Below, in pieces: positions 18,484 through 57,019 of a stretch of DNA of 64,000 bases. A model generated the notes under the pieces. The model was not told the origin of the DNA. It worked only from the letters and a program-made list of their open reading frames with translations, and searched no databases. How positions within the stretch are numbered: position 1 is the stretch's first letter; each line of letters begins with the position of its first letter. Source of the stretch: Tubiluchus corallicola (lineage: Eukaryota; Animalia; Priapulida); NCBI GenBank assembly GCA_030141605.1, contig JAQGDQ010001048.1, positions 3,787-67,786 of the forward strand, written 5' to 3'. The position numbers and the translations under genes were made by a program.

Positions 18484-18603
18484 CCTTAAACCATCAAGGC
18501 ACTGACTCACCTAAAGTAATGGCTTATTTCCTTTGGATAAACACGGATATCAACAACATGGATTTAAGAAACGTCAGTGAAAATCCTAAACGTGCTCAAT
18601 CTA

Positions 18604-19108: not shown

Positions 19109-19135
19109 AATCTACCTGTTCAGGTATTTGCTCAC

Positions 19136-19282: not shown

Positions 19283-19329
19283 CTAGACAAAAAGAAACAA
19301 TGATATAAAACATTGAACTAACTGCTTCG

Positions 19330-19520
19330 CGTTTAGTCATTATCCATTACTAAACAATGGATATCCATTGTTTAGTCATTATCTGTAGTTTAGCCATTAT
19401 CCATTACTAAACAATGGATATCCATTGTTTAGTCATTATCCGTTGCTTAGTCATTATCCATTGTTTAGTTATTATCCATTACTAAACAATGGATGTCCAT
19501 TGTTTAGTCATTATCCATCA
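19330..19520. repeat. Short palindromic tandem repeat
   Basis: Repeated TAGTCATTATCCATT units with a recurring palindrome CTAAACAATGGATATCCATTGTTTAG. Confidence 0.8.
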
Positions 19521-21335: not shown

Positions 21336-21666
21336 ATACAGTAGGCATGGTGTATCAAACTCACAGTAATGTAGAAACAATCACTCAATTGTCTCAAAAA
21401 CGTCTAGTACGGGCCGCTCGTGACATACAAGCTACACACGTGTCATTATATGCTGCTTGGTTGCACTGATGTGACGATGTAAACAAAGTGACGTCCTGCC
21501 AACTAGCGGTCAGCTTGCGAAAAAACGGACTGTGTCCGTAATATGTGGGACTTTTAACAATCCAGATGTCCGATATCCGTAAAAGCAAGGTCAGGCAAAT
21601 CGAGATACGAGCATTATGGGAGATTGGTATAACATTTGTAAAGCAGAGAAAAAATGTGCTAAGTAC

Positions 21667-21775
21667 CTTTCGCTCGGACAAGTTCAAGGAAGGCATGTGC
21701 AACTGTCGAGCGTACGTTTTTGACCAGTCGATAGGAAGAATGTTACCATAGTTACCAGTGATTGTCCACCACATT
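21667..21775 (-). CDS. unc-76: FEZ/UNC-76 coding exon 2
   Basis: TTCAG acceptor; (Q)MWWTITGNYGNILPIDWSKTYARQLHMPSLNLSERK is a conserved FEZ motif; GTACTT donor; 109 nt, phase 2 to 0, in frame with its neighbours. Confidence 0.93.
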
Positions 21776-22677
21776 CTGAAAGCAAAACACATGCTGTTTA
21801 CCTATAGTAGCCACTTTATAATTATTGGATAACTGATTGCATCTTAAAAGTGATAAAGCTAAACATTTTTTATAATTATATTATACAAAATTATATTGTA
21901 TAATTTTGTATATTGTATTGTATTTATATTGTATATTTTATTAATCATGTTTTATTGTAACACTATAAAGAGATAAATAAATTGAAATTGAATTGAATTC
22001 TGTAAATTATTTTATGTACATTTATTAGGCTAATGTTTAATAAAATACGGTAACCCATGGAACCTCCCCCGGGAAACCAAACTAAGCTATCACACCCTAC
22101 GTTGAAAACTCTTCAAAATGATGAGTAACACCCGTCTCTCTCCTTCCTGTTAGAACTTCAGTTCGCAGTTTTGAAGGTTTTGCAGAGAAACAGGCAAAGA
22201 TGCCATGGATGTTTAGGTTTTTCGTCCGTCGTTTCTCTACACAACACGAATTGGAAAATGGGAGACAAGAGACTTTTTTTGATATCACTTTTTCCAGTAC
22301 TAGTTTAGAAAATGACGCATTATATAAATAAGCATGCCTGGGGGAATTACTGATAGTAGGAGTATTAGATAAATATTCATCGTCTACTAAAGAAAAACAG
22401 TAGTTTAAGGAAGTATGTAATCATATTCTTGGAGTTACATTAGTATAACTGATAAAGCTACAGTATAGAAAACCAAACTAGTATTTGTTTAATTTTACAC
22501 TTAATACCAACTCGAAGTTGGCCTATTAGTCATATAATTATTGGCCGCTGATAAAATTTACTGGTATTAGGTAGCTAATCTCAGTCGTAAACTTACTGTA
22601 CTTAAACTAGTTAATTGTGAAGTATCAATGCAGGGAACTGACAGAATCAATGGACCCTAATTCAAAGTTATACTTAC

Positions 22678-23018
22678 TGGCAGTCGTTCATTATTTCCTC
22701 TTGTGTTCTCACTTGCACAGGGGCAATTTTATCCGTCTTCTCTTCGTAGTTCTTGAAACATTTTGTAATTTTTTCGTCGAAGCAGTTAACCAAGTCCTCA
22801 AGCGAGCCAGAAAATTCGCTGAAATTGTCCACTAATAAATTCTCTGTAGAATCACGAGCCGACACTTGACTTTTTGATTTCACCGATTCTTGGTGCAATT
22901 TATTCGAATTCTGAAAATCCTCTGAACTTTGAAACTCGTTGAAGTCGATCCATTCCTCAGCATCAAATTTGGCCAAAGGAGCTTCGAACTTCAACTCCGC
23001 CATCTTTGCTTCCCTCAT
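22678..23018 (-). CDS. unc-76: FEZ/UNC-76 family protein, first coding exon
   Basis: Translation MREAKMAELKFEAPLAKF...SGSLEDLVNCFDEKITKCFKNYEEKTDKIAPVQVRTQEEIMNDC matches the conserved N-terminus of UNC-76/FEZ1/FEZ2. ATG at 23018, GTAAGT donor at 22677 (phase 2), upstream TTTTTGCAG acceptor ending at 23116. Confidence 0.93.
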
Positions 23019-30765: not shown

Positions 30766-31307
30766 CATGGGTTCCCAACCTCAAGGTAGCGGCCCCTGTC
30801 GGGCTAATCCACAAACTATTTTTTTAAAAAATGCTGTTTCCATGAAAATATGCAAGTATTTCTTGTTTTCTTAGTCTCTCATTACGTAATTTTATTCTGG
30901 AAAGTGAAACTGGGTTTTCGCGCTCTAAATGTGGTATATCACTGCCTGATTTTCCGGGAAAATGAAAATGCGCGTTGTTCTGTACAGTGTACACTGTCCG
31001 AAAGCCGTCGCTATTCATTTTACGTCGGATCTTCTTAGATGCCTATCGCATTGCGTTACTGGTCCCAGAAAAACAGGCACAACCATCACATGAATGGATT
31101 AATGAATCATTCATTGCTCAATAATTTGTTGAACAGTAAATCACTCATTGCTCAATAATTTGTTGAACAGTAAGTTAAAATTAATAAATGCGAACGATAA
31201 TGATGTGTAAGTAATAGTATAATATGTGATTATGTTCTTCGTGGGGTCGCGATATGATGCAGGGTTCTAGAAAGGGGTCGCCATCATCAGAAGGTTGAGA
31301 ACCATTG
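30766..31307. mobile_element. Degenerate hAT (Charlie-like) MITE just downstream of the ALP stop codon
   Basis: CATGGGTTCCCAACCT ... AGGTTGAGAACCATTG termini, GGGGTCGC subterminal motifs, TSD 6/8 (TATTATAA / TTTTATGA). Confidence 0.65.
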
Positions 31308-31401: not shown

Positions 31402-31606
31402 TCATTTTCCCCATAAGCTGATGACCTTGCGAATGCATTTGCAATTTTGTCCCCACAAGTTACATTTGCAAGTGTTTCCATAACAGCAGTCATCTACGCT
31501 GATGCTGCACCTGTCCATGCGTCGTTTGCACCTGTATTTTCGCTCTCTAACGTAGTACCGACTGTATTTACGAGGTTTGTAGTAAGAGGGCGTGTAAGAT
31601 CGTCTC
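31402..31606 (-). CDS. ALP: Agatoxin-like peptide precursor, mature cystine-knot exon
   Basis: TTCTTCTTACAG acceptor; RRSYTPSYYKPRKYSRYYVRERKYRCKRRMDRCSISVDDCCYGNTCKCNLWGQNCKCIRKVISLWGK-stop. Cys spacing C-6-C-6-CC-4-C-1-C-6-C-1-C and the CxCNLWGxNCxC...WGK end are those of U8-agatoxin-Ao1a-like / ALP peptides. Confidence 0.9.
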
Positions 31607-31672
31607 CTGTAAGAAGAAAATGAGACATTTTTTAGAAATGAGATGCACTTACGTTGATGTAAGCTTGTAATA

Positions 31673-32025
31673 AACCTTTTCACAGTTGCAGTGATTGATG
31701 ATGATCGTGAAGTGGTCAAAGGTTAAGTGTACCAGACAACGTATTTTTGTACGCTTGACAACGCCTCCCAGCCCATGCCATTGTAATAGTAACAATTTTA
31801 ACAGCTAGCTAGAACCTTTCCTAGCTCATTTTTTCTTGCTGCCAAGTAAGGTCTTGCTAGTAAATCACTCTGCGCACAAACTAATGCATAATTAAGTAAG
31901 TAAAACAACTAAAGCTGATGCATCAGACGGCTTTGTTTTACCCATAAGTCACGTAACATGTTGCTGTTATACACTTAACCTTTGAACTAAAAAAATTGCG
32001 CATGCGCACAACGAAACTGTTTGAG
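31673..32025. mobile_element. MITE family A copy in the last ALP intron
   Basis: ACCTTTTCACAGTT start, GCTAGCTAGAACCTTTCCTAG core, TACACTTAACCTTTGA subterminal motif; ~65 bp from the acceptor at 31607. Confidence 0.7.
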
Positions 32026-33320
32026 GGGCGTCACATAAAAAATTCTTATTCTCCACGGAAAATGTGTATAACTTAAAAAGTTCCACATAACAAAAAGAGT
32101 GCAAACTATTACACAACAAACAGTTGCGCAGCCCGCTTGAATATAAGCGCTACGCAAACATACGTAATTAATAATGACAACGTAGAAAATAGGTTAATAT
32201 TGTTTCTAATACACCACAAGTAATTGTCCAAGCTGCTCACTACATAAACAATCAAAAATTTCCAATTTGGGCGGGACTAAACTATCAACCTACTGCATCG
32301 TAAAGAGATGCGCCTCCGATTCTAAACTTCTACCATATCTAGCAGTTGGCAGACGTAGGGCTGTGAGAGAGGAATATAGCAGTTTCTGTATTCTTCCCGT
32401 TAAAAAACCTTGTATTCACGTGCACTGATAGTTCAGTGAGGTGACATTTTGAAGCGGAAACGTCTCAAATTAGTCGAGTGTTCTGTACAGGAAACATGTC
32501 ATAATTCTGGGATTTTGTTTCTTTTTTATTTCTTAGTAGCGAGCAACGACGTGAGTGAACAGGAAAGAGAATTAAAAGCACGAGAGAAAGAGAATGACTC
32601 GACGAAGCACAAGTAAACCCTCCACTTACACAAAGCTTAAAACATCGTCTTGAAATTTTACAACACTTAAGTATTGACTTTTTGCATGCAGGGCTTGCAT
32701 CGGCAGTAACACTGTATAAATCTTGTAAATTTATACGGATGACCGTTAGACGCAGCCATTTTGACAATGAGTCATTTGAAACAAGTTTAGATAAAACTGA
32801 GTAAAGTTTGAAAAAAATCAGAGCATTCGTAATGCGTGTTACTAACTAAATAAGGTTTTAATAATTGTATCTTGGCAGTAAGATTAAAAATATTTTTTTG
32901 GTTAGTGAGTGGCGCACCCTGGAAGGTGAGTCAGCGACATTTTACTAATTGGCACGAACATTTTAAATTATTTCTAGTTACATAACTCTTTCTAACAGGT
33001 AAGCGAAAAGCTAAGTAATATAACTGCATGGAAAGTTTTTCGGGACATAATTTAACATTCCTTTCTTCCTTTGATTTACGTTGTGCGTATATGACGTCAT
33101 GTAATGGCGCCGTCGGAACAGTATTGCGGGAAACTTAAAATGAAAACAAACAAAAAATCCTTTCAACGCGAGCACGGTATATGCATAAAAAAGCTGTAAT
33201 GTAGTATAATTTTTTAAGGCGATTTTTGTGAAACCTACTTCAGGTGCCCCTTTTCTTGTCCTTAATGTTTTTGAATATCAATAAATCAATTTTGAATGTT
33301 GATAAATGAATTTTTAATAT

Positions 33321-33669
33321 TGTTACGGAGGCACCTGTGTCGGGTCAGGTGTAGGGCCCTCTACACGCCCTGCTTCCAGATCAGCAGCGACTCACCCCTT
33401 TCTTGTAGGTCCAGACGTCTTGTTTGGGCCTACACGTGGTGTGAGAAGCCAGCTGACCTGGAATGCCAGTATAAAAGCGTGTAGAGGTCACTACAACCTT
33501 GATTTCTGACACAGGTGTTCCTCGGGTGTAGTGCTGTTACTGAGTTAGTTAGTTATTTTTTTGTGCACGTGTATTTTGTTCCCTATTTTTATTAGTGCTG
33601 TTAATAAACTCCGTACAGTGTAGTTTTTGTGTATTTTATTTTATGAGAGTTAAATGACATGCTATAACA
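33321..33669 (+). mobile_element. Possible solo LTR
   Basis: TGTTA...TAACA termini, internal TATAAAA (~33470) and AATAAA (~33603), GC-richer than the flanks. No clean TSD. Confidence 0.45.
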
Positions 33670-34467
33670 GGTATATGGTACTAGTTTACAGGCATTAACT
33701 TAGTTAATTAGCATAACATTTGTAATTAACATTAACATTTGTAATTAAGTATCGGTTACACAACGATAGTAAAATGGATCTTCATGATGCACAATATCAA
33801 GACCGCCATGCCATCTTGGAGTTCGACCCCCTGAGTCGAATTCAGTCCAATATTAATAAATCAATTTTGACTTATTCATATTTTGACGTTGACTTATTGA
33901 CAAATGATGATATAAGAATCATGCATATATTTATATTAATAAATCATTTATCAATATTCAAATTTGGTTATTAATATAATATAAATGATTTATTAGTATT
34001 AGAAAAACATAAAATTATGTTTTGACGTTCCGTTAAGAAGAATAAAAGAAACTTGAGAAAAACATTAAAGTATAACGAGAAAAAACTCAGGAAAAGTGCA
34101 AGAAAAAGCAAAAGAAAGGGAAAGTAAGAAACGAGAAGGTGGAAAAGATTGTAGAAAGCAAGAAAAAGAGAGGCACAAGCAAAAAAAGGCAAGGGGAAAG
34201 AGAAAAAGGAGAAAAGAAGAAAGAGGAAAGGACGAAAGAGGCAAGAAAAAAAGAAAACAAAGCAAGGAAAGAAAATGATTGCATAAACAAATCAAGAATT
34301 TAAGAAAGAAAGAGTTAATAAACATCAATAAAGAAAAAAGGAAAAGAGCAAAGAAAAAAACAAGGTGGAAAAACTAAAAAAAGAAGAAAGAAAGTAAAAA
34401 GTTATGAAAAAGGGAAGGAGAACAAGAAAAGCAAGAGCAGGAAATGAGTGAACAAGACAAATCAAGT

Positions 34468-34772
34468 TGATAATGACGATGATAATAATGACGATGATGA
34501 CGATGACGATGGTTCCGAAGATGATCATGACTATGATGATGATAATGACAAAGACGGTGATGATGGTGATGATGATAATTATGATGACGATGACGATGAT
34601 GATAATGACAAAGGTGGTGATGATGACGGTGATGATGGTGATGATGATGATTATGATGACGATGCGATGATGATGATGACGATGATGATGATGATGACGA
34701 TGACAATGATGATGACGATGATGATGATAACGACGACGACGATGATGATGATGATGATGACGATGATGATGA
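34468..34772. repeat. Degenerate (GAT)n tract preceded by A/G-rich low-complexity DNA (34060-34460)
   Basis: Seen directly. Ends in a GATGAT-CATCAT orientation flip at ~34773. Confidence 0.9.
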
Positions 34773-35669
34773 TCATCATAATCAAAAATCTTTATTTTAT
34801 ACATAATAAGAAGATGAAAGACATAATGCATAAAGTTTTTTTGATGAAATCTTCATTGTTTTATAGTAGATGGCGCGTCAATCACTGCTTGTCACAAACC
34901 TGCAGGTTTACCTATTGGTTTTTGCGCTGATTGTTGAAATGCGCTGCAGAGTTTTCACAAAATCTTGCTTCTGCTTTAGCGTTGGAGGCTGCAGAGTAAA
35001 CACTTTTTCAACAAAAAAATTGTGACTGTAAATTGTCCGCAAGGGTTTTACGAAATGCGAGTATTAACACACTAGAGAGCTTTCCGAATTTCTGATTTAC
35101 TCATAAAAACTTTCTGATGTTCGAATTTACGTGTTTATTATTGCCATAAGGCTGCCGACTTGGCAAAATTCCAAGCGATCCTGCTTATACCTCTGAAAAG
35201 TGCGTCTCTGACGTTAAATTGTAGTAATTTTCTGACTATTTTTCTTCGTCTCTGGCAGATGAGATCTATCACCGACCGTAAGTGAAATGGAAAAAATTTG
35301 AGCTAAAGAAAAGAAGCGAGGAACTATAATATAGCTCCTCGGGTGAAAGGGAAAAGCTAAAATTGTGCAAATGCCGCGACTTTATGCAGTGATTATTGAA
35401 CTTAGAACCTAATATGAATTTTCAGAATTGGCCCCCTAGTGGTAAAAATATGAATTATCTTTTGTGTGCAGTTGATTTTGCTTCACTGCATCGCTACTGG
35501 TACGTAAACAAAAACTGATTCATGATTTGATTCTATTTTCTATGAAATTGCAACGAAATTATAAAATCTCATTATTGTTGACAGGTAAGTTGGATCATAA
35601 ATACGATAATAAGCTTACTTACTCAGATACAGCATACAAATCACTATACCTTGCAGGCAACACGATGAT

Positions 35670-35758
<89 letters not shown>

Positions 35759-35948
35759 GGTGATGAAGGTGATAATGATGACGATGATGACAATGACGAA
35801 GACAGTGACGATGACGACGATGTTGTTGATGACGACGACGACGACGACGACGACTATGATGGTGATGATGATGGTGATGGTGATGGTGATGACGGTGACG
35901 ATGACAATGACGAAGACAGTGACGACGATGACGACGACGACTATGATG

Positions 35949-36009
<61 letters not shown>

Positions 36010-36281
36010 CGATGGCGGTGACGATGACAATGACGATGACAATGATGATGATGAAGCGGATGACGATGACGACGGCGACGATGATGATGATGATGGTGGT
36101 GGTGGTGGTGGTGGTGGTGATGATGATGATGACGATGGGGATTATACATTTATATATATATATATATATAACAACATATATATATAGTTGTTATCATGAA
36201 CCACGTTATCGTCGCCATCATCATCATGATCACTAATGTTGTCATTAAGAACAAAAAAACGTATAAATCAGTCACACTTAC

Positions 36282-36336
36282 TTTGGCGTATTATGTAAAA
36301 AGGCCTGAAGCGCCGTGTCTTCGTCATAAAGAACAT
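36282..36336 (-). CDS. ALP: Agatoxin-like peptide precursor, acidic propeptide exon
   Basis: CTTTTTCAG acceptor and GTAAGT donor. 55 nt, phase 1 to 2, encoding (D)VLYDEDTALQAFLHNTP(K). It bridges the phases of the other two exons and creates a KRR cleavage site. Confidence 0.78.
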
Positions 36337-36894
36337 CTGAAAAAGAAAAATTCGTGTCAGAAGCACCTGTTACAAAAATCTGCAGTATAAACTCATTAAG
36401 ATGCACGAAACAGCGAGAACAACTGTAGCAGGAGCAGCAACGACAACAATGAACTGCATTTGTGAAAACTTACTGCAAGAAAAACAATAACAAAAAGGCA
36501 CGCACAATAACAGCAACAACGACAACTACAGCGCCAAGACAACAAAAATAAAAGCAACTGCGTCAATGACAGCGGCTGGCACAGTAACAGCGACGGCGAC
36601 AGAAGCAATAACACACAGTCACTTCCGTCACTGACTGCAACACTCAAAAAATCAATAACTCAATAGCACATTGGTTTCAATGACTAACAACTACAAAATC
36701 TCAGCTCTTCACAAAGAAGCCAGTTGAGGAAAGGAGTCAGTTTCAAAATGCAATTTGATTGTCTAGTCGCCAGAGTGACAAAAGACTTGAAAATGAAAAC
36801 AGTTCAATATCCTGCAAACTTCAGCTAACATCGCCAAATAAAGACAGAGAATTGTTTTTCTGAATGTTTCTGCGAGCTCTAATCCAATGCTGGC

Positions 36895-37352
36895 CATCGT
36901 CGTCGTCGTTAGCGCTGTTGCTGTCGTCGTTGTTGTTGTTGCCACTGTTATTGTTGTTGTTGTCATTGGAGGTGGCGGTAGTGGTAGTCCTGGTGGCGGT
37001 GGTGGTGGTGTTGGTGGTGGTGGTGGTGGTGCTACTGCTGCTGCTGTTGCGGTTGAAGTTGTTGTTGTTGTCATCGGCGGCGGCGGTGGCGGTAGTGGTA
37101 GTCCTGGTGGTGGTGGTTGTGGTGTTGGTAGTGGTGGTGATGATGGTGGTGCTGGTGTTGGTGGTGGTGGTGCTACTGCTGCTGCTGTTGCGGTTGAAGT
37201 TGTTGTTGTTCTCATCGGCGGCGGCGGTGGCAGTAGTGGTAGTCCTGGTGGTGGTGGTTGTGGTGTTGGTAGTGGTGGTGATGATGGTGGTGCTGGTGTT
37301 GGTGGTGGTGGTGCTACTGCTGCTGCTGTTGCGGTTGAAGTTGTTGTTGTTT

Positions 37353-37426
<74 letters not shown>

Positions 37427-38145
37427 TGCTGCTGCTGCTACTTGCTGCTGCTGCTGCTTGCTGCTGTTGTTGTTGTTGTTGTTGTTGCTGTTGCAACTGC
37501 TGCTGTTGTCGTCTGTAAGCGTTGCCTATTGCTGCTGCTGTTGCGGTTGCTGTTGTTGTTGTTGTTGCAATTGCTGCAGGTTTTGTTGTCATCACTGATG
37601 CAGTCATTTACTTCCAGCTGACCCTAGTTCATGAATCAACATGAAATCTAATCCTCAGAAAGGAACTCGTGTTGCTGTTGTTGCTGTTGCTTGCTGCTGT
37701 TGTTGTTGTTGTTGTTGCTGCTGCTGCTGCTGTTGTCGTTTGTAAGCGTTGCTACTGCTGCAGGTTTTGTTGTCATCACTGATGCATTCATGACTCTAGT
37801 ATACGAATCAACATGAAATCTAATCTTCAGAAAGGAACTCATGTTGCTGCTGCTGCTGTTGTTGTTGTTGCTGCTGTTGTCGTTTGTAAGCGTTGCTACT
37901 GTTGCAGGTTTTGTTGTCATCACTGATGCATTCATGACTCTAGTATACGAATCAACATAAAATCTAATCTTCAGAAAGGAACTCATGTTGCTGCTGCTAC
38001 TGCTGCTGTTGTTGTTGTTGTTGCTGCTGTTGTCGTTTGTAAGCGTTGCTACTGCTGCAGGTTTTGTTATCATCACTGATGCATTCATGACTCTAGTATA
38101 CGAATCAACATGAAATCTAATCTTCAGAAAGGAACTCATGTTGCC
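36895..38145. repeat. GGT/GCT/GTT low-complexity block followed by ~150-bp compound tandem units
   Basis: A constant ~110-bp core (GTCGTTTGTAAGCGTTGC...CAGAAAGGAACTCATG) separated by variable (GCT/GTT)n. Mirror at 60170-61600. Confidence 0.88.
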
Positions 38146-38510
38146 ATAAATTACTTGTATAAATATGAGGCACCAGTTCATCCCACTCAGAGTAATCGTT
38201 AAACAGATAATTCCTGTAAGAAACTCTCCACAAAAGATTGAACTTTTCAGTATTGATTCCACGCCAGTTAAACCATTTAGCAACCTGCCCCTCAAAGTCT
38301 TCCCAACTCCAGCGCAAATAAATTCAATCAGAACTTGACAAGTCTCTGATTGATTGTTCTGAAATCCCGCGGGAAAGTTCCCGGTAAGGATGGATCAGTT
38401 TCAGTTCTGATGTTATTACTCGGTTATTGTTGGTTCAAAGAAATCATTAAACCTGGAATATTTTGAAATTTGATTGAAATGTTCGTTTGTTTTTTTAGTT
38501 GCTTGGTAGA

Positions 38511-38630
38511 GACTACGGCCAAATCACGTTAAAAACACCGGTTCTCGTCTGATCACCGAAGTTAAGCAACGTAGAGCTTGGTTAGTACTTGGATGGGTGA
38601 CCGCCCAGGAATACCAGGTGCTGTAGGCTT
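38511..38630 (+). rRNA. 5S rRNA-like sequence (SINE head, probably not a functional rRNA gene)
   Basis: GACTACGGCC...CCGGTTCTCGTCTGATCACCGAAGTTAAGCAACG...TTAGTACTTGGATGGGTGACCGCC..GGAATACC.GGTGCTGTAGGCTT follows the animal 5S consensus, including boxes A and C. Confidence 0.85.
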
Positions 38631-39016
38631 GCGGGATGCCCACACTGTATTTCGACACTAGGCGGAGGAGCTGCACAAGCAGCCAACGGCTAGAGGGCGG
38701 AGGAGGTCAAGTGACCCAACGGCCATGTGTAGAAGAGGAAACCTTCCAAATCAGGAGTGGAGCCCCGAGTTGCTCACTGACTCCGGCAGCTCCTGCAGCC
38801 AACGTATCGCTCCACTTTCCTTTGGACTACACCAGGAAGGAAGAGAGGGGGTTCCTGTTGTCTGGGCAACTCAGGATCTCCATACACCTTGCCCAGGTTC
38901 AAGGATTGCACTGCTCAGCCACAGTCGACGCTGCAGCTCCATCACTGTGATCAATAACTTACTCTCTTGGCGCACACTCCATTGTCTTCCGAGACAGAAG
39001 GATGCCAACCAACCAA
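38511..39016 (+). mobile_element. 5S-rRNA-derived SINE (SINE3-type) with RTE-like body and tail
   Basis: 38511-38630 is a full-length 120-nt 5S rRNA-like sequence ending TT-G (no T-run terminator). The 3' part encodes RIALLSHSRRC (RTE-clade ORF C-terminus) and ends GAGACAGAAGGATGC(CAAC)n. Flanked by CTTGGTAG / CTTGGCAG. Confidence 0.8.
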
Positions 39017-41265
39017 CTTGGCAGTTAAAGGAAAGACCAAGTCGTTTGAAAAGTTGGACTTTTTCAACTTGGTGAAAAATGTTAGAAGGATTTAGTAATA
39101 AAAGTGTGATAATTGCATCTAGTAGTGCAAATAGAAAAATCACTTTAAATTCGCGATCATTTCACGCTTATGCTGTCCCATTTTGAACGCTAATTCTTCC
39201 ACCAATGACGTCATTCACGACTGAACAAAAGCAGAGCTCACTGTCAAATTTCTCCAGAAATAAAACAAGTTTTTACAAAAAATAGATAGCTAATTTTGTG
39301 ATATTTCGCATGAACATTACGTAAGCTACAGAATTTTTCATCTTTACACTTATGAACAGTCAATATGTTCACCAGTAACGTCATAATCTTCAAGTAAATG
39401 GCAGCTACCACCACGCCTGAAAACGTCTATACAGAGATAGTGTAAATTAACATTATTTTTTTGTAAATTTCATTGTTACATTTTTTAAGTTTAAATGATA
39501 ACGGTAAATAAACCCATCATGCTGACTGAAAGACTTGACCTTTCCTTTTAATTTTGTACTTAATTTTTTTTATTCACCGCCATCCAGTGTTTGTGTCCAT
39601 CACGCAACAGTTAGACAGCCTTAACGTAAACGGTGCGGCGGGACCGCAACTTATAAAATTATCACGAGTAAGCCGTGAAAAATGAAAACTAGTTACAATG
39701 TTAATAATTCTAAATTCTAGATTCTACCAAGCCGATGTGTGATATTTTATGTTTCCATAGCAACCACGCGATAATTTTTTTTAATTCTTCATAAAAAGAA
39801 CAATATCTGTTTCAAAAATATTTCATTACATTTCAATTTTGATAAATTCTTATTAGGAAAATGCAACGTTTCAGCTGCAAACTAGCACTCGTCGCCGGGA
39901 TTTATATAAAGAATGATCTAAAATGTTATGTTAAGATTAAACTAAAGCCTTAGCTAAATATATTGCTTATTAATGACATTCTGAGGGTTAAAGACAATCG
40001 TTTATTTGGCAAAGATTATTGTAATTTTATGTGTAACCCTGATTTCTCTTTAATGAATCATAATGCAAAGACTTGGGCAAAGAAAAGTTAAGCCCCACCC
40101 ATCATTCCTGTCGACGAATCAGGATTAAAATAATTTAATGACGTCGTTGTTGACGTCAGGCGTTTATGCTTCCTGAAATTGTTTACTTTATGCCGATGAC
40201 GTTGATCTTCTACATAAAATCCTGGGTAAAAACGCCATTTTAAACAGCTGCTTAGTCGAAATTGTAGCAAAGTTTGCCAGACTTAATCTGTTTGCAAAGA
40301 AACGCCTTTCACTCGTAATTTCTATTAAAATTTTCATAAGAAGTGCAGACAAACTGGACAGATATCAGAATTACTGTCAACGTCGAAGAAAAAATGGTTG
40401 CCATTGGCAACACAACATTTAGCAGAGATATTGGTTAGATCAATATACAATCATCTACCGATTTTTCTTTAGCTTCAACGTTTTTTTTTGATACCTATTT
40501 TATAGATATTGTACTACAGGGCTGTGGTGAAATGAAATGTAATGCTGGCAGGGGAATGCAGTAGACTTCTCAGGTGTGCGTGTGAGCGTGGCTTTATCTA
40601 GCACAGACACGTATTCTGACCTTGTATTAGTCAAAGCCACTAGTCACGTGCACACCTGAGCTTATAAAAAGGGAAGGTCTGCTGTAGATCCTTGTCAGTG
40701 GTCGTGTCTTTCATTGCAGCTCTGTTCACATTTCACAGGCTTTGCCGCAAACGCCGTTCTTCTAGGTAAACTGTTTGTTCCTTATTGGGGGTGTGATATG
40801 TAGAATAAAATTGTCATTTCGACTCTATTGTTCGGGTTTGTTTTGGGTTTGGTGTTGAAGGACTTAATTGGGACTTGCCGCACGGTGTGGGCTGCGGTGC
40901 CATCCGTCCTGCCTCCGTTAAAGCGGACAGCAGTCCAATATACATAATTATATTTCTGAAAGATGATGTTAATGTAGTAGCTGCATTGAATGACCAACAT
41001 GGTGACTGTAGTGAAGTAATAAAACAGACGCAAAACAACTTTATCCAGAAAAATGGGCGAATTTTCCATTAGCGTTACTGCCACCCCATATAATGTTTCT
41101 GTTTGATCAGTGTGAGTTGTCATCGAACCATGCAAAAAATCGAAGTTACCGAACCAATAACGATAATTAGAATTTTCAAGATATCGAAGCTGATATATTT
41201 CTCTCTCTCACTCTGTCTCTCACATTCTCTCTCTTTCTCTCACTCTCCCGCCATAACCCCTGTCT

Positions 41266-41448
<183 letters not shown>

Positions 41449-42049
41449 ATTTCTCGTTCTTTCTTTCTCTTCCTCCCTCTCCCCTGTCTCTTCTCTCCCG
41501 CTGCACACTGTCTCGATCTGTTCTCATTTCTTTCCCTTTTTCATTCTTCCTCTATCTTTGTAATTTTAATTAGTAATTTACACTGTGTCTAGAATCACCT
41601 TATTTTATTATTTTATTAGAAAATTTGTAAAATTTATACTTATGCTGATCTTGTACCTGCAAATAGAGGTCTTATTAATAAAGATTTTAAATAAATAAAT
41701 AAAATAAAATCCCTTCTCTCCCTTTTTCTCCTTCTCCCCTGTCGTGTTGTCTCTCTTTCCCTCACCCCATTCCTCACTGTATTCTACACATCGAGCTGCA
41801 TTTCTAACAACATCTAAATTCTTTCTCCCTCCACATCTTCAACTCTAATTAAAAGGAAATGACCTCCTCCTGAGAACTAAATGACTCATCACAAGACGCA
41901 GGGTGAAGGTTATAACTCTTAACTACAACTAATCTAGCTCAGGAAATTAAAAGGTTAATGAAAGTTGATCTTTTGTTTTACATAGCTTCCAAACCACTTA
42001 CGAACCTCCTGCAGTAGCTCAGATCAATATCAAAGTCGCCTGTCAAGGC

Positions 42050-42612
42050 CCTATTTTGAGACACAGTTCAGTTTGGAGTCTCATATTGTCCCACAGTTGC
42101 CATAGTAATAACACGCGTAGGATGCATGAATAAGGGTGATGGTATTAACAATGTAGGACCGAAGAAAGATCCTTGCAGCATCCCGTAATCCCTATTTTGA
42201 GACACCGTTCAGTTTGGAGTCTCATATTGTCCCACAGTTGCTATAGTAATAACACGCGTAGGATGCATGAATAACGGTGATGGTATTAACAATGTAGGAC
42301 CAAAGAAAGATCCTTGCAGCATCCCGTAAACCCTATTTTGAGACACAGTTCAGTTTGGAGTCTCATATTGTCCCACAGTTGCCATAGTAATAACACGCGT
42401 AGGATGCATGAATAAGGGTGATGGTATTAACAATGTAGGACCGAAGAAAGATCCTTGCAGCATCCCGTAATCCCTATTTTGAGACACCGTTCAGTTTGGA
42501 GTCTCATATTGTCCCACAGTTGCTATAGTAATAACACGCGTAGGATGCATGAATAACGGTGATGGTATTAACAATGTAGGACCAAAGATAGATCCTTGCA
42601 GCATCCCGTAAT
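42050..42612. repeat. 140-bp tandem repeat, 4 copies (3 in the mirror at 55878-56300)
   Basis: Unit CCCTATTTTGAGACAC...GATCCTTGCAGCATCCCGTAAT. Confidence 0.9.
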
Positions 42613-43639
42613 CCACATGCAGTTTTATCAATAGTAACTTTCTTTTGATCATTTTCCCTACAAGGTGCTGCTTCATCCACACTGGATAATTAACGACTGC
42701 GCAAGAATACTAATAGAAGTGCGGAACTATCACTGATGCTTATATAATTAATAATTTGTGCAATTTGCAACGAGCACTGCAGTATGGAGGGTGCGTTTGT
42801 AATGTTTATTAAACAACCCACAGAGAGAAAAAGTCTTGAAATTACGTTGCCCATTTACCACCTCTCTGGAACTTCAAAAAATTCACCCCCTTTTCAATTA
42901 AGTTGATCAATACAGTACCTCCTTTGAACAAAATTAGAAAAAAATACTTTAATGGCTTTAATGTCTTCCTGTTTTAGGACTCCTGGAACCAACAATCGGT
43001 CATTTCTGTAATTAGCAGTCCATCAAATTTACAGGAGTGTGTTTATAGGAACACCAGGAGCCTGGGTATTGAACCCGGTATACTTCTCTCTTAAAAGGAA
43101 CTGAAAGAGCTATAAAACTGCGCGTTTCTACTTTATATGTCTAGTTTAAGTTTTGCAGTATTCTGACAAAAATACTACCCCCAGACCGGTTTTTTGCATT
43201 TTACCTTTTACCATACGCATCCCAGTAAACCTTTTATATGACTTTTCTAAATATGTTTTGTGCACAAAATACTTATTTATTTATTTATTTATTTTAGGCG
43301 CATTGTCTCACCACGAAATAAAAGTAAAAATGCAATATGTCGATTTTTTAACATAGTCGAAACTTCGCTTGTCTATACATTATACATTATACATTATACA
43401 TTATACATTATACATTATTAATGTCTGTACATTAATTACTCCATCTAAAAGAAAAAGTAGTAGACAATAAATTCAAAATAACAATGACAATAACAATGGT
43501 GGTCAGCATAACCACAAATTATGCTGTTGCTGTTTACTAATGAAACACGTTTAACAAAAGTGATTTACGAATTATGGTGGGGGTAATATTTTACCCCCCC
43601 CCCCCGGTTACCAAATATGCACTTTAACATATTGAAATT

Positions 43640-44179
43640 AAACATGCCATTTATTCAAAAATGACTTCCATGAAAGAATTATTACCACACAAACATAATT
43701 TCACGTTCGCGCCACTAGTTCTTCACTGTTACATGTTTCGCCATTCGTTAGTTAGACGGGCACTAGCGCGTGCATTTCGGAAACAAATTGCACAAAATTG
43801 CACCTCTCAGTTCAGATATGTTAGTTTGTGACGAACTACATACATTCGACAGCTCATGCGTGAACACAGCAGTAAATTTGAAATTTGAATTTTTATCTTA
43901 AAACTTGCCTAGTTTTAGTACAGCACTGAATACCTTACAGTAACACTGTACTTCAATTCTCGCTTCCACAAACACGTGCAACATGCTCGTGGAATATTTT
44001 TGATGTTGAAAATTATGTTAGTTTGTGACGTTATCAATAGTTGGGCTCGCCGCCGTTAATAAATTTTTAAACCATTATTTAATTATGAGAAACACATTTG
44101 CAGTATTATTTGAGTTAAAGGTATACTTTTTATCGAACTTGAAAATGAATTAGTATACGAAAAATCATCCTGCCTCCCT
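43640..44179 (-). mobile_element. Dispersed repeat family B (TTAA-AGG terminus, Kolobok-like by inference)
   Basis: Shares sequence with 27702-27975, 29140-29300, 15580-15775 and the mirror copy 54312-54850. One end reads TTAA|AGG at 27698 and 54308. Confidence 0.5.
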
Positions 44180-45451
44180 TTAAAGGATAAGAAACGCTCT
44201 TTATTAACAATATTTATTAATAATTAATAATAATATTATTAACGTCCTGATATTTAATATCATTTGTTAAACGTAAAGTCATCTGTAAATGGTACTATTC
44301 AAGCAGGAATCCAACACACAGGACTCACTTAATGAACATAGACGTGGCAAGACCGAAACCCAACTCAGTTGTCACGGAACTCGGCGTTGCCTAATTTTTG
44401 ACAGCAAACACACATCGTGACACTTTACCAAACGATTTTCCACATTTATGGCTCAGAACTGTTCAGTAAATCAGGAAAAGTCCTGGAAATCTGCACAAGA
44501 CACGCAAGAACTTCTACACTGTAGTTCGTATTCGAGTCATGATCTTCTACTTCAATAAAATTAAGTGGAACTATTTATACCAATCTCATCTGGTATTAGT
44601 CACTCAGTGTGACTTTCTAAATTAAGAAATCAGCTACTCAGTGAATTAGTTAGTTGAGTTATGTCATCACAACAGTGTTAGCGCCAATGCATTTGCATGG
44701 CTTCATTGCATTAGCTACAATTCTTGCACATGGCTTCAATGGTTTCAGCAAAAAAAAACAACATATTTGATTAACGAGAAATTTCTGTATAAACGAACAT
44801 ATGAAGTACTAAATTCAACACAAGAGCACAAACTGTAACTAAATCTTCAATCAATCGATGAATCGGTCAGTTACTTAGTCAGTGAGTCAGCTAGTCAGTC
44901 AAACAGTTAGTCAGTCAGTCAGTTATTCAGTCATTTAGTTTTGAATGTGAGATAAAAAAGCTAAATTTAAAAATTCAAATAAAGTCATTTAACTGGTTAG
45001 TTAGTTAATCAGTCCGTCCGTCCATTAATCAATTGGTGCAAAAACTGTAAGCCAAAACTGTAACTGTATTTGAAACAATGTTTACTGGGGCCCTTCATTA
45101 CCTGTTTTGTAACATCAGAGAAGAAGAAAATTGGCAGATTTCACAATTTGGCTATAACGCATGCGCAGTTACTGTAGGTGAAAGGTTAAGTGTAACACAG
45201 CAAAGTGTCTTAAACTACAATCGTCACGTGACATGTGGGTAAATAATGATGATGATAAATCCTTTATTACGCCTCTATTGCAGGCTCAATACCGATGGGT
45301 ATTGGTGTGGGTAAAGCAAAGCCGCCTGCTGCACCGGTTCAGTAACTTCTGTCGTTTTAAATAGTCTTTAAGCATTATGCATTAGTTGTAGAGTGATTTA
45401 CAAGTAGGATCTTGCCTGGGAACAAGAAAAAATGAACTAGGTAAGATTTAC

Positions 45452-45548
45452 CTGACAAATCTTCATCATTGTCAAGTGTGTAAGAAAAGGTATCTCCTAG
45501 TAGAACCACCAGCATCACTGTGAAGACTGCAACCTGCCCAGGAGACAT
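45452..45548 (-). CDS. ALP: Agatoxin-like peptide precursor, signal-peptide exon
   Basis: TTTTTTCCAG acceptor (exon starts 45556), ATG at 45548. MSPGQVAVFTVMLVVLLGDTFSYTLDNDEDLS has a hydrophobic core followed by acidic residues. CAG|GTAAAT donor, 97 coding nt, phase 1. Confidence 0.78.
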
Positions 45549-46194
45549 CGTGGACACTGGAAAAAAGTAGATAAGATGCTAATTAAATTGTTGGTGCTCG
45601 ACGCTGTGCTTGGCCGACCTAAAATGTTTCTCCAAGCAACAGTACAGCAGTTTTAGACTAGTTAAGGCTGTAATTATCACTGTCGGCTGTTATTGCTGTC
45701 GCTGCTGCTACTAGTGATGATGATGATGTTGCTTCTGCTGCTATCATTACTGTTATAGTAATTATTATTGTTGTTGTTGTTGTTGTTGTTGTCGCTGCTG
45801 CTACTAATGGTGTTGATGGTGATGACGAAGACGGCGACGACGAGAATAAAGGCACAGCACTTTGACCGCAATTACGGTGTCAGAAATCAGTAAAAGTCAG
45901 AAAAAAGTAAAAAATCAAGCCTGTATGCGAACCTACAACCCACGAGACAGAGATGAACAAACAATTGTTCATGTACATTTTTATGTTATTTACGTGCTTT
46001 TTTACTTTTTAGTATTTCTTTATCTGACGTTTGTCCTAAATAATATAATGTAATGTAATGTAATGTAGTGTAACGTAATGTAATTTAATGTAATGTAATG
46101 TACTGTAGTGTAATGTAATGTAATGTAATGTAAAATAACACATTGTAAATCCACTATAAATAAATAAAGTTTAAACTAACTAAAATAATCTAGC

Positions 46195-51883: not shown

Positions 51884-51943
<60 letters not shown>
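50795..51943. repeat. Compound tandem repeat: constant ~80-95-bp core plus variable (GTT/GAT/GCT)n, 6 units
   Basis: Core TTTCTACACATTTGCATATTTAAATTTTCTTCAC(A/G)TGGCGA...GGTTTTCTAGA at ~50805, 50960, 51135, 51336, 51645 and 51795. Confidence 0.9.
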
Positions 51944-51944
<1 letters not shown>

Positions 51945-52947
51945 ATGTTATGTTATGTTATGTTATGTTATGTTATGTTGTGTTGTGTTATGTTGTACTG
52001 TGCTGTGCTGTGCTGTGCTATGCTATGCTATGCTATGTTACGTTATGTTATTTTATGTTATGTTATGTTACGTTATGTTATGTTATGTTATGTTATGTTA
52101 CGTTATGTTATGTTATGTTATGTTATGTTATGTTATGTTATGTTATGTTATGTTATGTTATGTTATGTTATGTTATGTTATGTTATGTTATGTTATGTTA
52201 TGTTATGTTATGTTATGTTATGTTATGTTATGTTATGTTATGTTATGTTATGTTATGTTATTTTACTTTATGTTATGCTATGTTATTTTACGTTACGTTA
52301 TGCTAGATTATTTTAGTTAGTTTAAACTTTATTTATTTATAGTGGATTTACAATGTGTTATTTTACATTACATTACATTACATTACACTACAGTACATTA
52401 CATTACATTAAATTACATTACGTTACACTACATTACATTACATTACATTATATTATTTAGGACAAACGTCAGATAAAGAAATACTAAAAAGTAAAAAAGC
52501 ACGTAAATAACATAAAAATGTACATGAACAATTGTTTGTTCATCTCTGTCTCGTGGGTTGTAGGTTCGCATACAGGCTTGATTTTTTACTTTTTTCTGAC
52601 TTTTACTGATTTCTGACACCGTAATAGCGGTCAAAGTGCTGTGCCTTTATTCTCGTCGTCGCCGTCTTCGTCATCACCATCAACACCATTAGTAGCAGCA
52701 GCGACAACAACAACAACAACAACAACAATAATAATTACTATAACAGTAATGATAGCAGCAGAAGCAACATCATCATCATCACTAGTAGCAGCAGCGACAG
52801 CAATAACAGCCGACAGTGATAATTACAGCCTTAACTAGTCTAAAACTGCTGTACTGTTGCTTGGAGAAACATTTTAGGTCGGCCAAGCACAGCGTCGAGC
52901 ACCAACAATTTAATTAGCATCTTATCTACTTTTTTCCAGTGTCCACG

Positions 52948-53044
52948 ATGTCTCCTGGGCAGGTTGCAGTCTTCACAGTGATGCTGGTGGTTCTACTAGG
53001 AGATACCTTTTCTTACACACTTGACAATGATGAAGATTTGTCAG
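52948..53044 (+). pseudogene. Inverted duplicate of the ALP signal-peptide exon
   Basis: Reverse-complement copy of 45452-45548 with intact splice sites. No plus-strand cystine-knot exon follows within the window. Confidence 0.7.
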
Positions 53045-56000
53045 GTAAATCTTACCTAGTTCATTTTTTCTTGTTCCCAGGCAAGATCCTACTTGTAAAT
53101 CACTCTACAACTAATGCATAATGCTTAAAGACTATTTAAAACGACAGAAGTTACTGAACCGGTGCAGCAGGCGGCTTTGCTTTACCCACACCAATACCCA
53201 TCGGTATTGAGCCTGCAATAGAGGCGTAATAAAGGATTTATCATCATCATTATTTACCCACATGTCACGTGACGATTGTAGTTTAAGACACTTTGCTGTG
53301 TTACACTTAACCTTTCACCTACAGTAACTGCGCATGCGTTATAGCCAAATTGTGAAATCTGCCAATTTTCTTCTTCTCTGATGTTACAAAACAGGTAATG
53401 AAGGGCCCCAGTAAACATTGTTTCAAATACAGTTACAGTTTTGGCTTACAGTTTTTGCACCAATTGATTAATGGACGGACGGACTGATTAACTAACTAAC
53501 CAGTTAAATGACTTTATTTGAATTTTTAAATTTAGCTTTTTTATCTCACATTCAAAACTAAATGACTGAATAACTGACTGACTGACTAACTGTTTGACTG
53601 ACTAGCTGACTCACTGACTAAGTAACTGACCGATTCATCGATTGATTGAAGATTTAGTTACAGTTTGTGCTCTTGTGTTGAATTTAGTACTTCATATGTT
53701 CGTTTATACTGAAATTTCTCGTTAATCAAATATGTTTTTTTGCTGAAACCTTTGAAGCCATGTGCAAGAATTGTAGCTAATGCAATGAAGCCATGCAAAT
53801 GCATTGGCGCTAACACTGTTGTGATGACATAACTCAACTAACTAATTCACTGAGTAGCTGATTTCTTAATTTAGAAAGTCACACTGAGTGACTAATACCA
53901 GATGAGATTGGTATAAATAGTTCCACTTAATTTTATTGAAGTAGAAGATCATGACTCGAATACGAACTACAGTGTAGAAGTTCTTGCGTGTCTTGTGCAG
54001 ATTTCTGGGACTTTTCCTGATTTACTGAACAGTTCTGAGCCATAAATGTGGAAAATCGTTTGGTAAAGTGTCACGATGTGTGTTTACTGACAAAAATTAG
54101 GCAACGCCGAGTTCCGTGACAACTGAGTTGGGTTTCGGTCTTGCCACGTCTATGTTCATTAAGTGAGTCCTGTGTGTTGGATTCCTGCTTGAATAGTACC
54201 ATTTACAGATGACTTTACGTTTAACAAATGATATTAAATATCAGGACGTTAATAATATTATTATTAATTATTAATAAATATTGTTAATAAAGAGCGTTTC
54301 TTATCCTTTAAAGGGAGGCAGGATGATTTTTCGTATACTAATTCATTTTCAAGTTCGATAAAAAGTATACCTTTAACTCAAATAATACTGCAAATGTGTT
54401 TCTCATAATTAAATAATAGTTTAAAAATTTATTAACGGCGGCGAGCCCAACTATTGATAACGTCACAAACTAACATAATTTTCAACATCAAAAATATTCC
54501 ACGAGCATGTTGCACGTGTTTGTGGAAGCGAGAATTGAAGTACAGTGTTACTGTAAGGTATTCAGTGCTGTACTAAAACTAGGCAAGTTTTAAGATAAAA
54601 ATTCAAATTTCAAATTTACTGCTGTGTTCACGCATGAGCTGTCGAATGTATGTAGTTCGTCACAAACTAACATATCTGAACTGAGAGGTGCAATTTTGTG
54701 CAATTTGTTTCCGAAATGCACGCGCTAGTGCCCGTCTAACTAACGAATGGCGAAACATGTAACAGTGAAGAACTAGTGGCGCGAACGTGAAATTATGTTT
54801 GTGTGGTAATAATTCTTTCATGGAAGTCATTTTTGAATAAATGGCATGTTTAATTTCAATATGTTAAAGTGCATATTTGGTAACCGGGGGGGGGGGGTAA
54901 AATATTACCCCCACCATAATTCGTAAATCACTTTTGTTAAACGTGTTTCATTAGTAAACAGCAACAGCATAATTTGTGGTTATGCTGACCACCATTGTTA
55001 TTGTCATTGTTATTTTGAATTTATTGTCTACTACTTTTTCTTTTAGATGGAGTAATTAATGTACAGACATTAATAATGTATAATGTATAATGTATAATGT
55101 ATAATGTATAATGTATAGACAAGCGAAGTTTCGACTATGTTAAAAAATCGACATATTGCATTTTTACTTTTATTTCGTGGTGAGACAATGCGCCTAAAAT
55201 AAATAAATAAATAAATAAGTATTTTGTGCACAAAACATATTTAGAAAAGTCATATAAAAGGTTTACTGGGATGCGTATGGTAAAAGGTAAAATGCAAAAA
55301 ACCGGTCTGGGGGTAGTATTTTTGTCAGAATACTGCAAAACTTAAACTAGACATATAAAGTAGAAACGCGCAGTTTTATAGCTCTTTCGGTTCCTTTTAA
55401 GAGAGAAGTATACCGGGTTCAATACCCAGGCTCCTGGTGTTCCTATAAACACACTCCTGTAAATTTGATGGACTGCTAATTACAGAAATGACCGATTGTT
55501 GGTTCCAGGAGTCCTAAAACAGGAAGACATTAAAGCCATTAAAGTATTTTTTTCTAATTTTGTTCAAAGGAGGTACTGTATTGATCAACTTAATTGAAAA
55601 GGGGGTGAATTTTTTGAAGTTCCAGAGAGGTGGTAAATGGGCAACGTAATTTCAAGACTTTTTCTCTCTGTGGGTTGTTTAATAAACATTACAAACGCAC
55701 TCTCCATACTGCAGTGCTCGTTGCAAATTGCACAAATTATTAATTATATAAGCATCAGTGATAGTTCCGCACTTCTATTAGTATTCTTGCCCACTCGTTA
55801 ATTATCCAGTGTGGATGAAGCAGCACCTTGTAGGGAAAATGATCAAAAGAAAGTTACTATTGATAAAACTGCATGTGGATTACGGGATGCTGCAAGGATC
55901 TATCTTTGGTCCTACATTGTTAATACCATCACCGTTATTCATGCATCCTACGCGTGTTATTACTATAGCAACTGTGGGACAATATGAGACTCCAAACTGA

Positions 56001-56901
56001 ACGGTGTCTCAAAATAGGGATTACGGGATGCTGCAAGGATCTATCTTTGGTCCTACATTGTTAATACCATCACCGTTATTCATGCATCCTACGCGTGTTA
56101 TTACTATAGCAACTGTGGGACAATATGAGACTCCAAACTGAACGGTGTCTCAAAATAGGGATTACGGGATGCTGCAAGGATCTTTCTTCGGTCCTACATT
56201 GTTAATACCATCACCCTTATTCATGCATCCTACGCGTGTTATTACTATGGCAACTGTGGGACAATATGAGACTCCAAACTGAACTGTGTCTCAAAATAGG
56301 GCCTTGACAGGCGACTTTGATATTGATCTGAGCTACTGCAGGAGGTTCGTAAGTGGTTTGGAAGCTATGTAAAACAAAAGATCAACTTTCATTAACCTTT
56401 TAATTTCCTGAGCTAGATTAGTTGTAGTTAAGAGTTATAACCTTCACCCTGCGTCTTGTGATGAGTCATTTAGTTCTCAGGAGGAGGTCATTTCCTTTTA
56501 ATTAGAGTTGAAGATGTGGAGGGAGAAAGAATTTAGATGTTGTTAGAAATGCAGCTCGATGTGTAGAATACAGTGAGGAATGGGGTGAGGGAAAGAGAGA
56601 CAACACGACAGGGGAGAAGGAGAAAAAGGGAGAGAAGGGATTTTATTTTATTTATTTATTTAAAATCTTTATTAATAAGACCTCTATTTGCAGGTACAAG
56701 ATCAGCATAAGTATAAATTTTACAAATTTTCTAATAAAATAATAAAATAAGGTGATTCTAGACACAGTGTAAATTACTAATTAAAATTACAAAGATAGAG
56801 GAAGAATGAAAAAGGGAAAGAAATGAGAACAGATCGAGACAGTGTGCAGCGGGAGAGAAGAGACAGGGGAGAGGGAGGAAGAGAAAGAAAGAACGAGAAA
56901 T

Positions 56902-56939
<38 letters not shown>

Positions 56940-56960
56940 CTAGGGAGAGAGAGAGGGCCC

Positions 56961-57019
<59 letters not shown>

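What the first reader, a model, noticed from the sequence alone, without database searches (positions are those of the whole stretch)
31402..45556. Hidden three-exon agatoxin-like (cystine-knot) peptide precursor
Seen: three small exons spread over 14 kb splice with matching phases (97+55+205 nt) to MSPGQVAVFTVMLVVLLGDTFSYTLDNDEDLSDVLYDEDTALQAFLHNTP-KRR-SYTPSYYKPRKYSRYYVRERKYRCKRRMDRCSISVDDCCYGNTCKCNLWGQNCKCIRKVISLW-GK (118 aa). Established: this Cys spacing and the CxCNLWGxNCxC..WG end define ALP / U8-agatoxin-like peptides, which are neuroendocrine in many arthropods and related to venom ICK toxins; Gly-Lys signals amidation. Inference: loops 1-2 and the tail differ strongly from the usual CxRRGGxCDxRPxDCC..QRMGLFQKW pattern, so this may be a diverged paralogue such as a venom or defence peptide.
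Basis: partly seen in the sequence, partly recalled or inferred. Interest (0 to 1): 0.8.

Follow-up and report, generated by a model that had tools for sequence, protein, structure and literature searches.

The report
Agatoxin-like neuropeptide gene in priapulid-like worm
Three small exons spell a cysteine-knot peptide precursor with the exon layout of the known agatoxin-like/CCWamide neuropeptide family; the host is likely a penis worm rather than an arthropod, so this is likely an ordinary nerve-signalling peptide and not a venom.

Summary
The three exons are real: 97+55+205 nt on the minus strand, all GT-AG, intron phases 1 and 2. That layout, with the second intron inside a basic codon of the cleavage site, is the published signature of the ALP/CCWamide family (Thiel 2021). 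The neighbouring FEZ/UNC-76 gene groups with Priapulus caudatus (100/99), so the host is likely a priapulid, not an arthropod. Nothing found points to venom. One-to-one orthology with the Priapulus gene is not shown: the cores share 11 of 24 non-Cys positions and trees of 45 columns are unstable. Splicing and tissue could not be tested. Verdict: new member of a known family, low to modest interest.

The parts
45452..45556 (-). Exon 1: 8 nt of 5' UTR after an acceptor, ATG at 45548, predicted signal peptide (about 22 aa) and start of the acidic propeptide; phase-1 donor
   Evidence: best 11-residue hydropathy 3.1; homologues 2.6-3.5; SignalP not run
36282..36336 (-). Exon 2 (55 nt): acidic propeptide, ends inside the Lys codon of the KRR cleavage site; phase-2 donor
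31402..31606 (-). Exon 3 (205 nt): rest of cleavage site, 23-aa Tyr-rich basic spacer, 8-Cys domain (Cys1 codon at 31530, Cys8 at 31437), Trp-Gly-Lys-stop amidation signal
30891..30896 (-). Candidate poly(A) signal AATAAA about 500 nt after the stop
   Evidence: inference only
52948..53044 (+). Second copy of exon 1, identical, same splice sites, in the inverted arm
62160..62214 (+). Second copy of exon 2, one synonymous change, same splice sites; no exon 3 follows it in the window
51941..62833 (.). Inverted copy of 46552-35664; starts at a (TGT)n to (TGTTA)n microsatellite junction
62813..64000 (.). Direct copy of 34763-35947 running off the window end; junction in a (CAT)n/(GAT)n array
3543..23018 (-). 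Neighbouring FEZ/UNC-76 gene (at least five coding exons), used to place the host

Best explanation
The three exons encode a precursor with the layout of the agatoxin-like peptide (ALP)/CCWamide family, and it is likely the ordinary neuropeptide of that family in a priapulid or close scalidophoran relative. Shown from sequence: hydrophobic N-terminus in exon 1, acidic propeptide over exons 1-2, a KRR site split by a phase-2 intron, a basic Tyr-rich spacer, eight Cys spaced 6-6-0-4-1-6-1 and a Trp-Gly-Lys end. Inferred from family knowledge: the precursor would enter the secretory pathway of neurons, prohormone convertases would cut at KRR (and possibly again at the RxxR just before Cys1), carboxypeptidase and PAM would leave a Trp-amide, and four disulfides would fold a cystine knot. 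The released peptide would act as a neuromodulator or neurohormone on a receptor that is unknown for the whole family. Its distance from the arthropod consensus would reflect lineage, not a change of role.
For: Intron phases 1 and 2, with the second inside a basic codon, match the splice patterns of Centruroides ALP-1, Crassostrea, Lottia, Phoronis and Notospermus CCWa1 in the Thiel 2021 supplement (PMC8557429). FEZ tree: window sister to Priapulus caudatus, 100/99, among 33 rows; Priapulus is also the top FEZ hit. The Priapulus protein XP_014664846.1, annotated U8-agatoxin-Ao1a-like, is 57% identical over 35 aa, shares all 12 residues from Cys5 to Cys8 and also lacks the arthropod loops 1-2 and tail. 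WGQNCKC is in 3 of 102 homologues: Priapulus, Ramazzottius, Dreissena. Lineus CCWamides carry a Tyr-rich spacer closed by basic residues. In four trees the window peptide paired with non-arthropod rows, never inside an arthropod group. Family members are seen in nervous tissue: CCWamide mRNA broadly in Berghia ganglia (10.1101/2023.06.22.546160, passages), ALP by mass spectrometry in beetle neuropeptidomes (PMC9552230, passages).
Against: Window and Priapulus cores share only 11 of 24 non-Cys positions, against 15-20 among spider, horseshoe crab, crayfish, ant and millipede ALPs. No tree made the two sisters; the AU test does not reject the pairing (p 0.436) but does not reject pairing with a spider ALP either (p 0.145), and long branches meet. 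The FEZ tree held only one scalidophoran, so kinorhynch or loriciferan hosts were not tested. The 23-aa spacer is longer than in the Priapulus protein. Expression site is untested.
Confidence: 0.72

Rival explanations
1. It is a second, diverged ALP/CCWamide paralogue that is still a neuropeptide; the true orthologue of the Priapulus gene lies elsewhere in the genome.
For: Low core identity to the Priapulus peptide (11 of 24) and no sister placement. The family has several paralogues in nemerteans and Centruroides (PMC8557429) and is reported expanded in copepods and barnacles (PMC13760995, passages).
Against: Only one Priapulus protein appeared among the named rows of the two searches that returned hits (20 of the 55 hits were looked up by name). 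Only one such Cys pattern lies in the window. The Cys5-Cys8 stretch is identical to Priapulus.
Confidence: 0.15
2. It is a secreted defence, antimicrobial or prey-subduing peptide recruited from ALP, acting on ion channels or membranes like spider knottins.
For: Cationic (net +5 from Cys1, +7 in the spacer). Pfam Toxin_9. Weak sequence and fold matches to omega-agatoxins and Tbo-IT2. Recruitment of ALP into venom is described for spiders (PMC8557429, PMC13311285).
Against: These matches are a family trait: E 0.01-0.03 for solved toxins, none at E<=0.001 by Foldseek, while ALP-type precursors fill the search. No array of diverged mature exons in the window. The host groups with Priapulus; no title among the 9 papers listed for priapulid+venom+toxin concerns a priapulid venom (listing only); that priapulids lack a known venom system is recalled.
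Confidence: 0.07
3. The gene as modelled is not expressed: the repeat structure over exons 1-2 is real and has disrupted it, or the region is misassembled and the true spacing differs.
For: Exons 1-2 sit in a direct-inverted-direct repeat. No strong donor for the implied upstream exon in the 1609 non-tandem bases of 45557-51940, so the promoter may lie beyond the inverted copy.
Against: All exons are intact with canonical sites; the two copies differ in the exons by one synonymous base. Either direct copy of exons 1-2 would give the same protein with exon 3 (inference).
Confidence: 0.06

Closest known systems
Priapulus caudatus U8-agatoxin-Ao1a-like (XP_014664846.1; P0155)
   Same: Short precursor, acidic propeptide with a similar D/T-A-L-Q motif before the dibasic site, same Cys spacing, identical Cys5-Cys8 stretch, Gly after an aromatic or aliphatic end.
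   Different: Loops 1-3 and tail differ (11 of 24 non-Cys core positions shared); 102 vs 118 aa; short spacer instead of a 23-aa Tyr-rich one; ends in Ile-Gly rather than Trp-Gly-Lys.
Arthropod agatoxin-like peptides (ALP; e.g. Centruroides XP_023230485.1, Uloborus, Homarus, Tribolium)
   Same: Three coding exons, phases 1 and 2, split basic site, Cys spacing 6-6-0-4-1-6-1, NLWG loop, Trp-Gly-Lys end.
   Different: 8-10 of 24 non-Cys core positions shared with the named arthropod rows; tail one residue shorter; QNCKC in place of the usual [TS]NCRC.
Spiralian CCWamides (Dreissena P0223, Crassostrea, Lineus, Lottia, Phoronis)
   Same: Same intron phases, AL[DEQ] motif in the middle exon, aromatic/basic spacer before Cys1, NLWGQNC[KR]C, LW-G end.
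   Different: CCWamides have a longer loop 2 and a shorter tail; the window peptide has the 6-residue loop 2 of ecdysozoan ALPs.
Spider venom knottins (omega-agatoxin IVA/IVB, Tbo-IT2, Pfam Toxin_9 PF02819)
   Same: 8-Cys knot framework; predicted fold matches knottins (Tbo-IT2 rmsd 1.1 over 33 columns).
   Different: Weak scores only; venom-gland expression and channel activity define them and are untested here; the host is likely not an arachnid.

Membership tests
ALP/CCWamide (Thiel 2021) | Signal peptide encoded in the first coding exon | tested here: met
   Hydropathy scan only; SignalP not available
ALP/CCWamide (Thiel 2021) | Three coding exons, mature peptide in the last; introns of phase 1 then 2 | tested here: met
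   Genomic splice sites against published splice patterns
ALP/CCWamide (Thiel 2021) | Cleavage site interrupted by an intron between bases 2 and 3 of a basic codon | tested here: met
   Lys codon split AA/G, followed by Arg-Arg
ALP/CCWamide (Thiel 2021) | Eight Cys with an aromatic residue between Cys6 and Cys7 | tested here: met
   Spacing 6-6-0-4-1-6-1 in 97 of 99 rows that fit an 8-Cys pattern, window included; 4 of 103 rows did not fit; Trp present
ALP/CCWamide (Thiel 2021) | C-terminal amidated aromatic residue | tested here: met
   Trp-Gly-Lys-stop in sequence; the amide itself needs mass spectrometry
ALP/CCWamide (Thiel 2021) | Expression in neurons or neuroendocrine tissue | not testable with these tools
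   No usable RNA for this gene
One-to-one orthologue of Priapulus XP_014664846 | Sister placement in a tree and single copy | tested here: inconclusive
   Unstable 45-column trees, AU p 0.436; no whole genome held
Inhibitor cystine knot fold | Knotted disulfides around a beta hairpin | tested here: inconclusive
   AlphaFold2 pLDDT 78-88 over residues 31-60, strands 44-47 and 56-59; Foldseek top rows are mostly knottins, none at E<=0.001; disulfide pairing not read out
Venom agatoxins / venom ICK toxins | Made in a venom gland of a venomous animal and active on prey ion channels | not testable with these tools
   Host groups with Priapulus; no expression or activity data
Venom agatoxins / venom ICK toxins | Multigene expansion of diverged mature domains | tested here: inconclusive
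   One mature exon in 64 kb; the repeat covers exons 1-2 only; genome not held

The most novel reading that the evidence does not exclude
A fast-evolving ALP paralogue in a priapulid has left the nervous system and is secreted from introvert or pharyngeal glands as a cationic knottin against prey or microbes: an independent recruitment of ALP into a toxin outside arthropods, at a locus being reshaped by an inverted triplication.
Probability: 0.06. Interest if true: 0.7.

Novelty: new member of a known kind. Interest (0 to 1): 0.24.

Why it matters
It adds a scalidophoran-type member, with full gene structure, to a protostome-wide peptide family whose receptor and function are unknown (PMC8557429 section 9; PMC13311285 passages). 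It combines the ecdysozoan Cys spacing with spiralian-type features (WGQNCKC, Tyr-rich spacer, LW-amide), which helps separate the ancestral core from arthropod-specific loops and supports the view that spider agatoxins came from a neuropeptide. The apparent fast change between two likely priapulid peptides, against strong conservation in arthropods, is a small open point. It does not by itself make the receptor question testable.

Tried and rejected
No whole genome is held, so no paralogue search or synteny test was possible. Sequencing runs: no RNA holder listed; one run, X1, came by species label only. Its contigs did not cover exon 3 and touched only repeats nearby; on the FEZ control one contig skipped the first intron (CT..AC, 29 letters on the short side, under the tool's 31-letter bar) at about 95-97% identity. 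Neither is used as evidence on expression. Word-index search with exon 3 alone found no candidate; the Atlas gave only sub-0.9 leads, best a Tbo-IT2-like Toxin_9 cluster at 0.84. BLASTP of exon 2 against the Priapulus precursor: no alignment. Peptide trees: partner changed between tardigrade and Dreissena as rows were dropped, bootstraps unsettled; not used to claim orthology. Christie 2020 (PMC7747469) not held; Sturm 2016 seen only as cited by others. Xibalbin paper passages (PMC11288129) added nothing. Earlier scan notes: none on this family or near this window, none by sequence; three notes on duplicated exons elsewhere in the genome did not bear on it. Rejected: arthropod host; a second complete gene copy in the window (no second exon 3); a simple in-place inversion of the 0.9-kb piece at the right junction (the direct copy continues into the next array).
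Full report
Observation. The gene is on the minus strand. Exon 1 codes from the ATG at 45548 to 45452 (97 nt) and is followed by GTAAAT; a pyrimidine tract and CAG end 8 nt above the ATG, which is where the finding's 45556 comes from and implies an untranslated exon further up. Exon 2 is 36336-36282 (55 nt) and exon 3 is 31606-31402 (205 nt). Together they give 118 codons and a stop, across introns of 9115 and 4675 nt. Intron 1 is phase 1, inside an Asp codon; intron 2 is phase 2, inside the Lys codon of KRR. Exon 2 is the only open phase-1-to-2 piece among 10 strong acceptors and 20 strong donors in the interval. Its stretch ranked first of 679 against three non-arthropod pro-regions (clearly for Dreissena, by one point for Priapulus, tied for Ramazzottius) and 51st and 204th against two arthropod ones. 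Splicing in RNA was not shown.

Family. Exon 3 hits Pfam Toxin_9 above its cut-off and 55 proteins in the 1.84-billion library, which read as ALP-type precursors; I looked up names for 20 of the 55. Thiel et al. 2021 (PMC8557429; I read passages, all of section 9, and supplement passages plus part 10 of 387) define ALP/CCWamide precursors by a signal peptide in exon 1, the mature peptide in the last of usually three exons, a cleavage site split by a phase-2 intron inside a basic codon, eight Cys with an aromatic residue between Cys6 and Cys7, and an amidated aromatic end. The window gene meets each of these at sequence level, and its phase-1 first intron also matches the patterns seen for Centruroides ALP-1, Crassostrea, Lottia, Phoronis and Notospermus. 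The Cys spacing 6-6-0-4-1-6-1 is shared by 97 of 99 rows that fit an 8-Cys pattern (window included; 4 of 103 rows did not fit and many rows are near-duplicates). An AlphaFold2 model has pLDDT 78-88 over residues 31-60 with a beta hairpin; Foldseek's top rows are mostly knottins, but none reaches E 0.001.

Host. The next gene downstream, 8.4 kb away on the same strand, is FEZ/UNC-76. Its best hit is Priapulus caudatus, with 68, 86 and 79% identity in the three blocks that the partial Priapulus protein covers, against 66, 78 and 59% for the next row; in a 33-row tree built from a hand-picked 32 of the 120 listed hits the two are sisters at 100/99. The host is therefore likely a priapulid other than P. 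caudatus, or another scalidophoran; no kinorhynch or loriciferan was in the tree. This changes the baseline against which divergence must be judged.

Divergence. P. caudatus has a protein annotated U8-agatoxin-Ao1a-like (XP_014664846.1). It is 57% identical over 35 residues, identical from Cys5 to Cys8, and like the window peptide lacks the arthropod loops and tail. WGQNCKC occurs in 3 of 102 homologues, those of Priapulus, the tardigrade Ramazzottius and the mussel Dreissena; many of the other rows are unnamed. Lineus CCWamides have a Tyr-rich spacer between two basic sites, and several spiralian peptides end in LW-G. So much of what looks odd beside insects is the non-arthropod state. Against simple orthology: window and Priapulus share only 11 of 24 non-Cys core positions, while spider, horseshoe crab, crayfish, ant and millipede ALPs share 15-20 (barnacle and copepod rows 10-15). 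Four trees on 45 columns paired the window peptide with the tardigrade or Dreissena, never inside an arthropod group and never directly with Priapulus, and long branches meet. The AU test rejects neither a Priapulus pairing (p 0.436) nor a spider pairing (p 0.145). Orthology is likely but not shown.

Mechanism. Shown: the order of parts in the precursor. Inferred from established neuropeptide processing: signal cleavage after about residue 22 (hydropathy; several unnamed homologues start the propeptide with the same YTLD), convertase cleavage at KRR, an optional second cut at the RxxR before Cys1 that would release the 23-residue spacer with 7 Tyr, trimming of Lys and conversion of Gly to an amide on Trp, and four disulfides. 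Beetles make long and short ALP splice forms and ALP is found by mass spectrometry (PMC9552230, passages); CCWamide is broadly expressed in Berghia neurons (10.1101/2023.06.22.546160, passages). No receptor is known for the family (PMC8557429 section 9; PMC13311285 passages). I put 0.72 on the ordinary neuropeptide of this lineage, 0.15 on a neuropeptide paralogue, 0.07 on a defence or venom role and 0.06 on a non-expressed or misassembled model.

Self-comparison shows 34763-46552, then a 5.4-kb repeat-rich middle, then an inverted copy of 46552-35664 at 51941-62833, then a direct copy starting again from 34763 at 62813 and running off the window. Both junctions lie in microsatellites. The inverted arm has exon 1 unchanged and exon 2 with one synonymous base, splice sites intact, but no exon 3. 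The arms differ by 0.37%, 1.32% and 0.33% outside tandem repeats in three blocks, the direct copy by 0.22%, and several minisatellites differ in unit number, so they are not an exact fold-back of one molecule. A real inverted triplication and a join of two haplotypes both fit; the window has no N gap. I cannot decide between them. The mature-peptide exon is outside the repeat, so this is not a toxin-like expansion.

Novelty. The family, its gene structure and its presence in non-venomous protostomes are published, and a Priapulus member is annotated in NCBI. The NP-HMMer preprint (10.1101/2024.07.20.604414; parts 1-2 of 3 read) shows an agatoxin alignment among peptides found in Priapulida and Rotifera; its table and figures are images and its supplements are closed, so I could not see which taxon it came from. 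Searches for priapul+agatoxin (2 papers), CCWamide (8) and priapulid+venom+toxin (9, listing only) showed nothing on this gene or on a priapulid venom. Verdict: a well-spotted, real gene, a new member of a known family; interest 0.24.

Noticed in passing
window 34763-64000: Direct-inverted-direct repeat of about 11 kb covering exons 1-2, with both junctions in microsatellites; arms 0.2-1.3% different; real inverted triplication or assembly artefact.
   Followed up: partly
window 3543-23018, minus strand: FEZ/UNC-76 gene, at least five coding exons, closest to Priapulus caudatus; one contig of run X1 skips its first intron, with 29 letters on the short side.
   Followed up: partly
window 45546-45570, minus strand: Strong acceptor 8 nt above the ATG implies a non-coding first exon; no strong donor in the non-tandem bases of 45557-51940, so it may lie beyond the window.
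   Followed up: partly
window 31669-31974, 7609-8036, 26643-26969, 45168-45448, 53048-53328, 3-259: A dispersed repeat family of about 250-300 nt (70-80% alike) with copies next to exon 3's acceptor and exon 1's donor; run X1 holds many similar pieces.
   Followed up: no
window 3809-4050, about 38630-39075, 59287-59515: A second dispersed repeat with open frames of 100-140 aa, 90% alike between the FEZ end and the peptide gene's intron 1.
   Followed up: no
window 752-2798, 47263-49743, 42049-42614, 37691-38144: Large minisatellites: 24-nt unit x84, 80-nt unit x31, 141-nt unit x4, about 150-nt unit x3; about a quarter of the window is tandem repeat.
   Followed up: no
proteins P0122 and P0123: Unnamed ALP precursors with two 8-Cys domains in tandem, an arrangement not mentioned in the ALP/CCWamide text I read.
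   Followed up: no
PMC8557429 supplement part 10: Lineus and Cerebratulus transcripts share the same N-terminal part but end in different CCWamide domains, which suggests alternative last exons; no second last exon was found in this window.
   Followed up: partly
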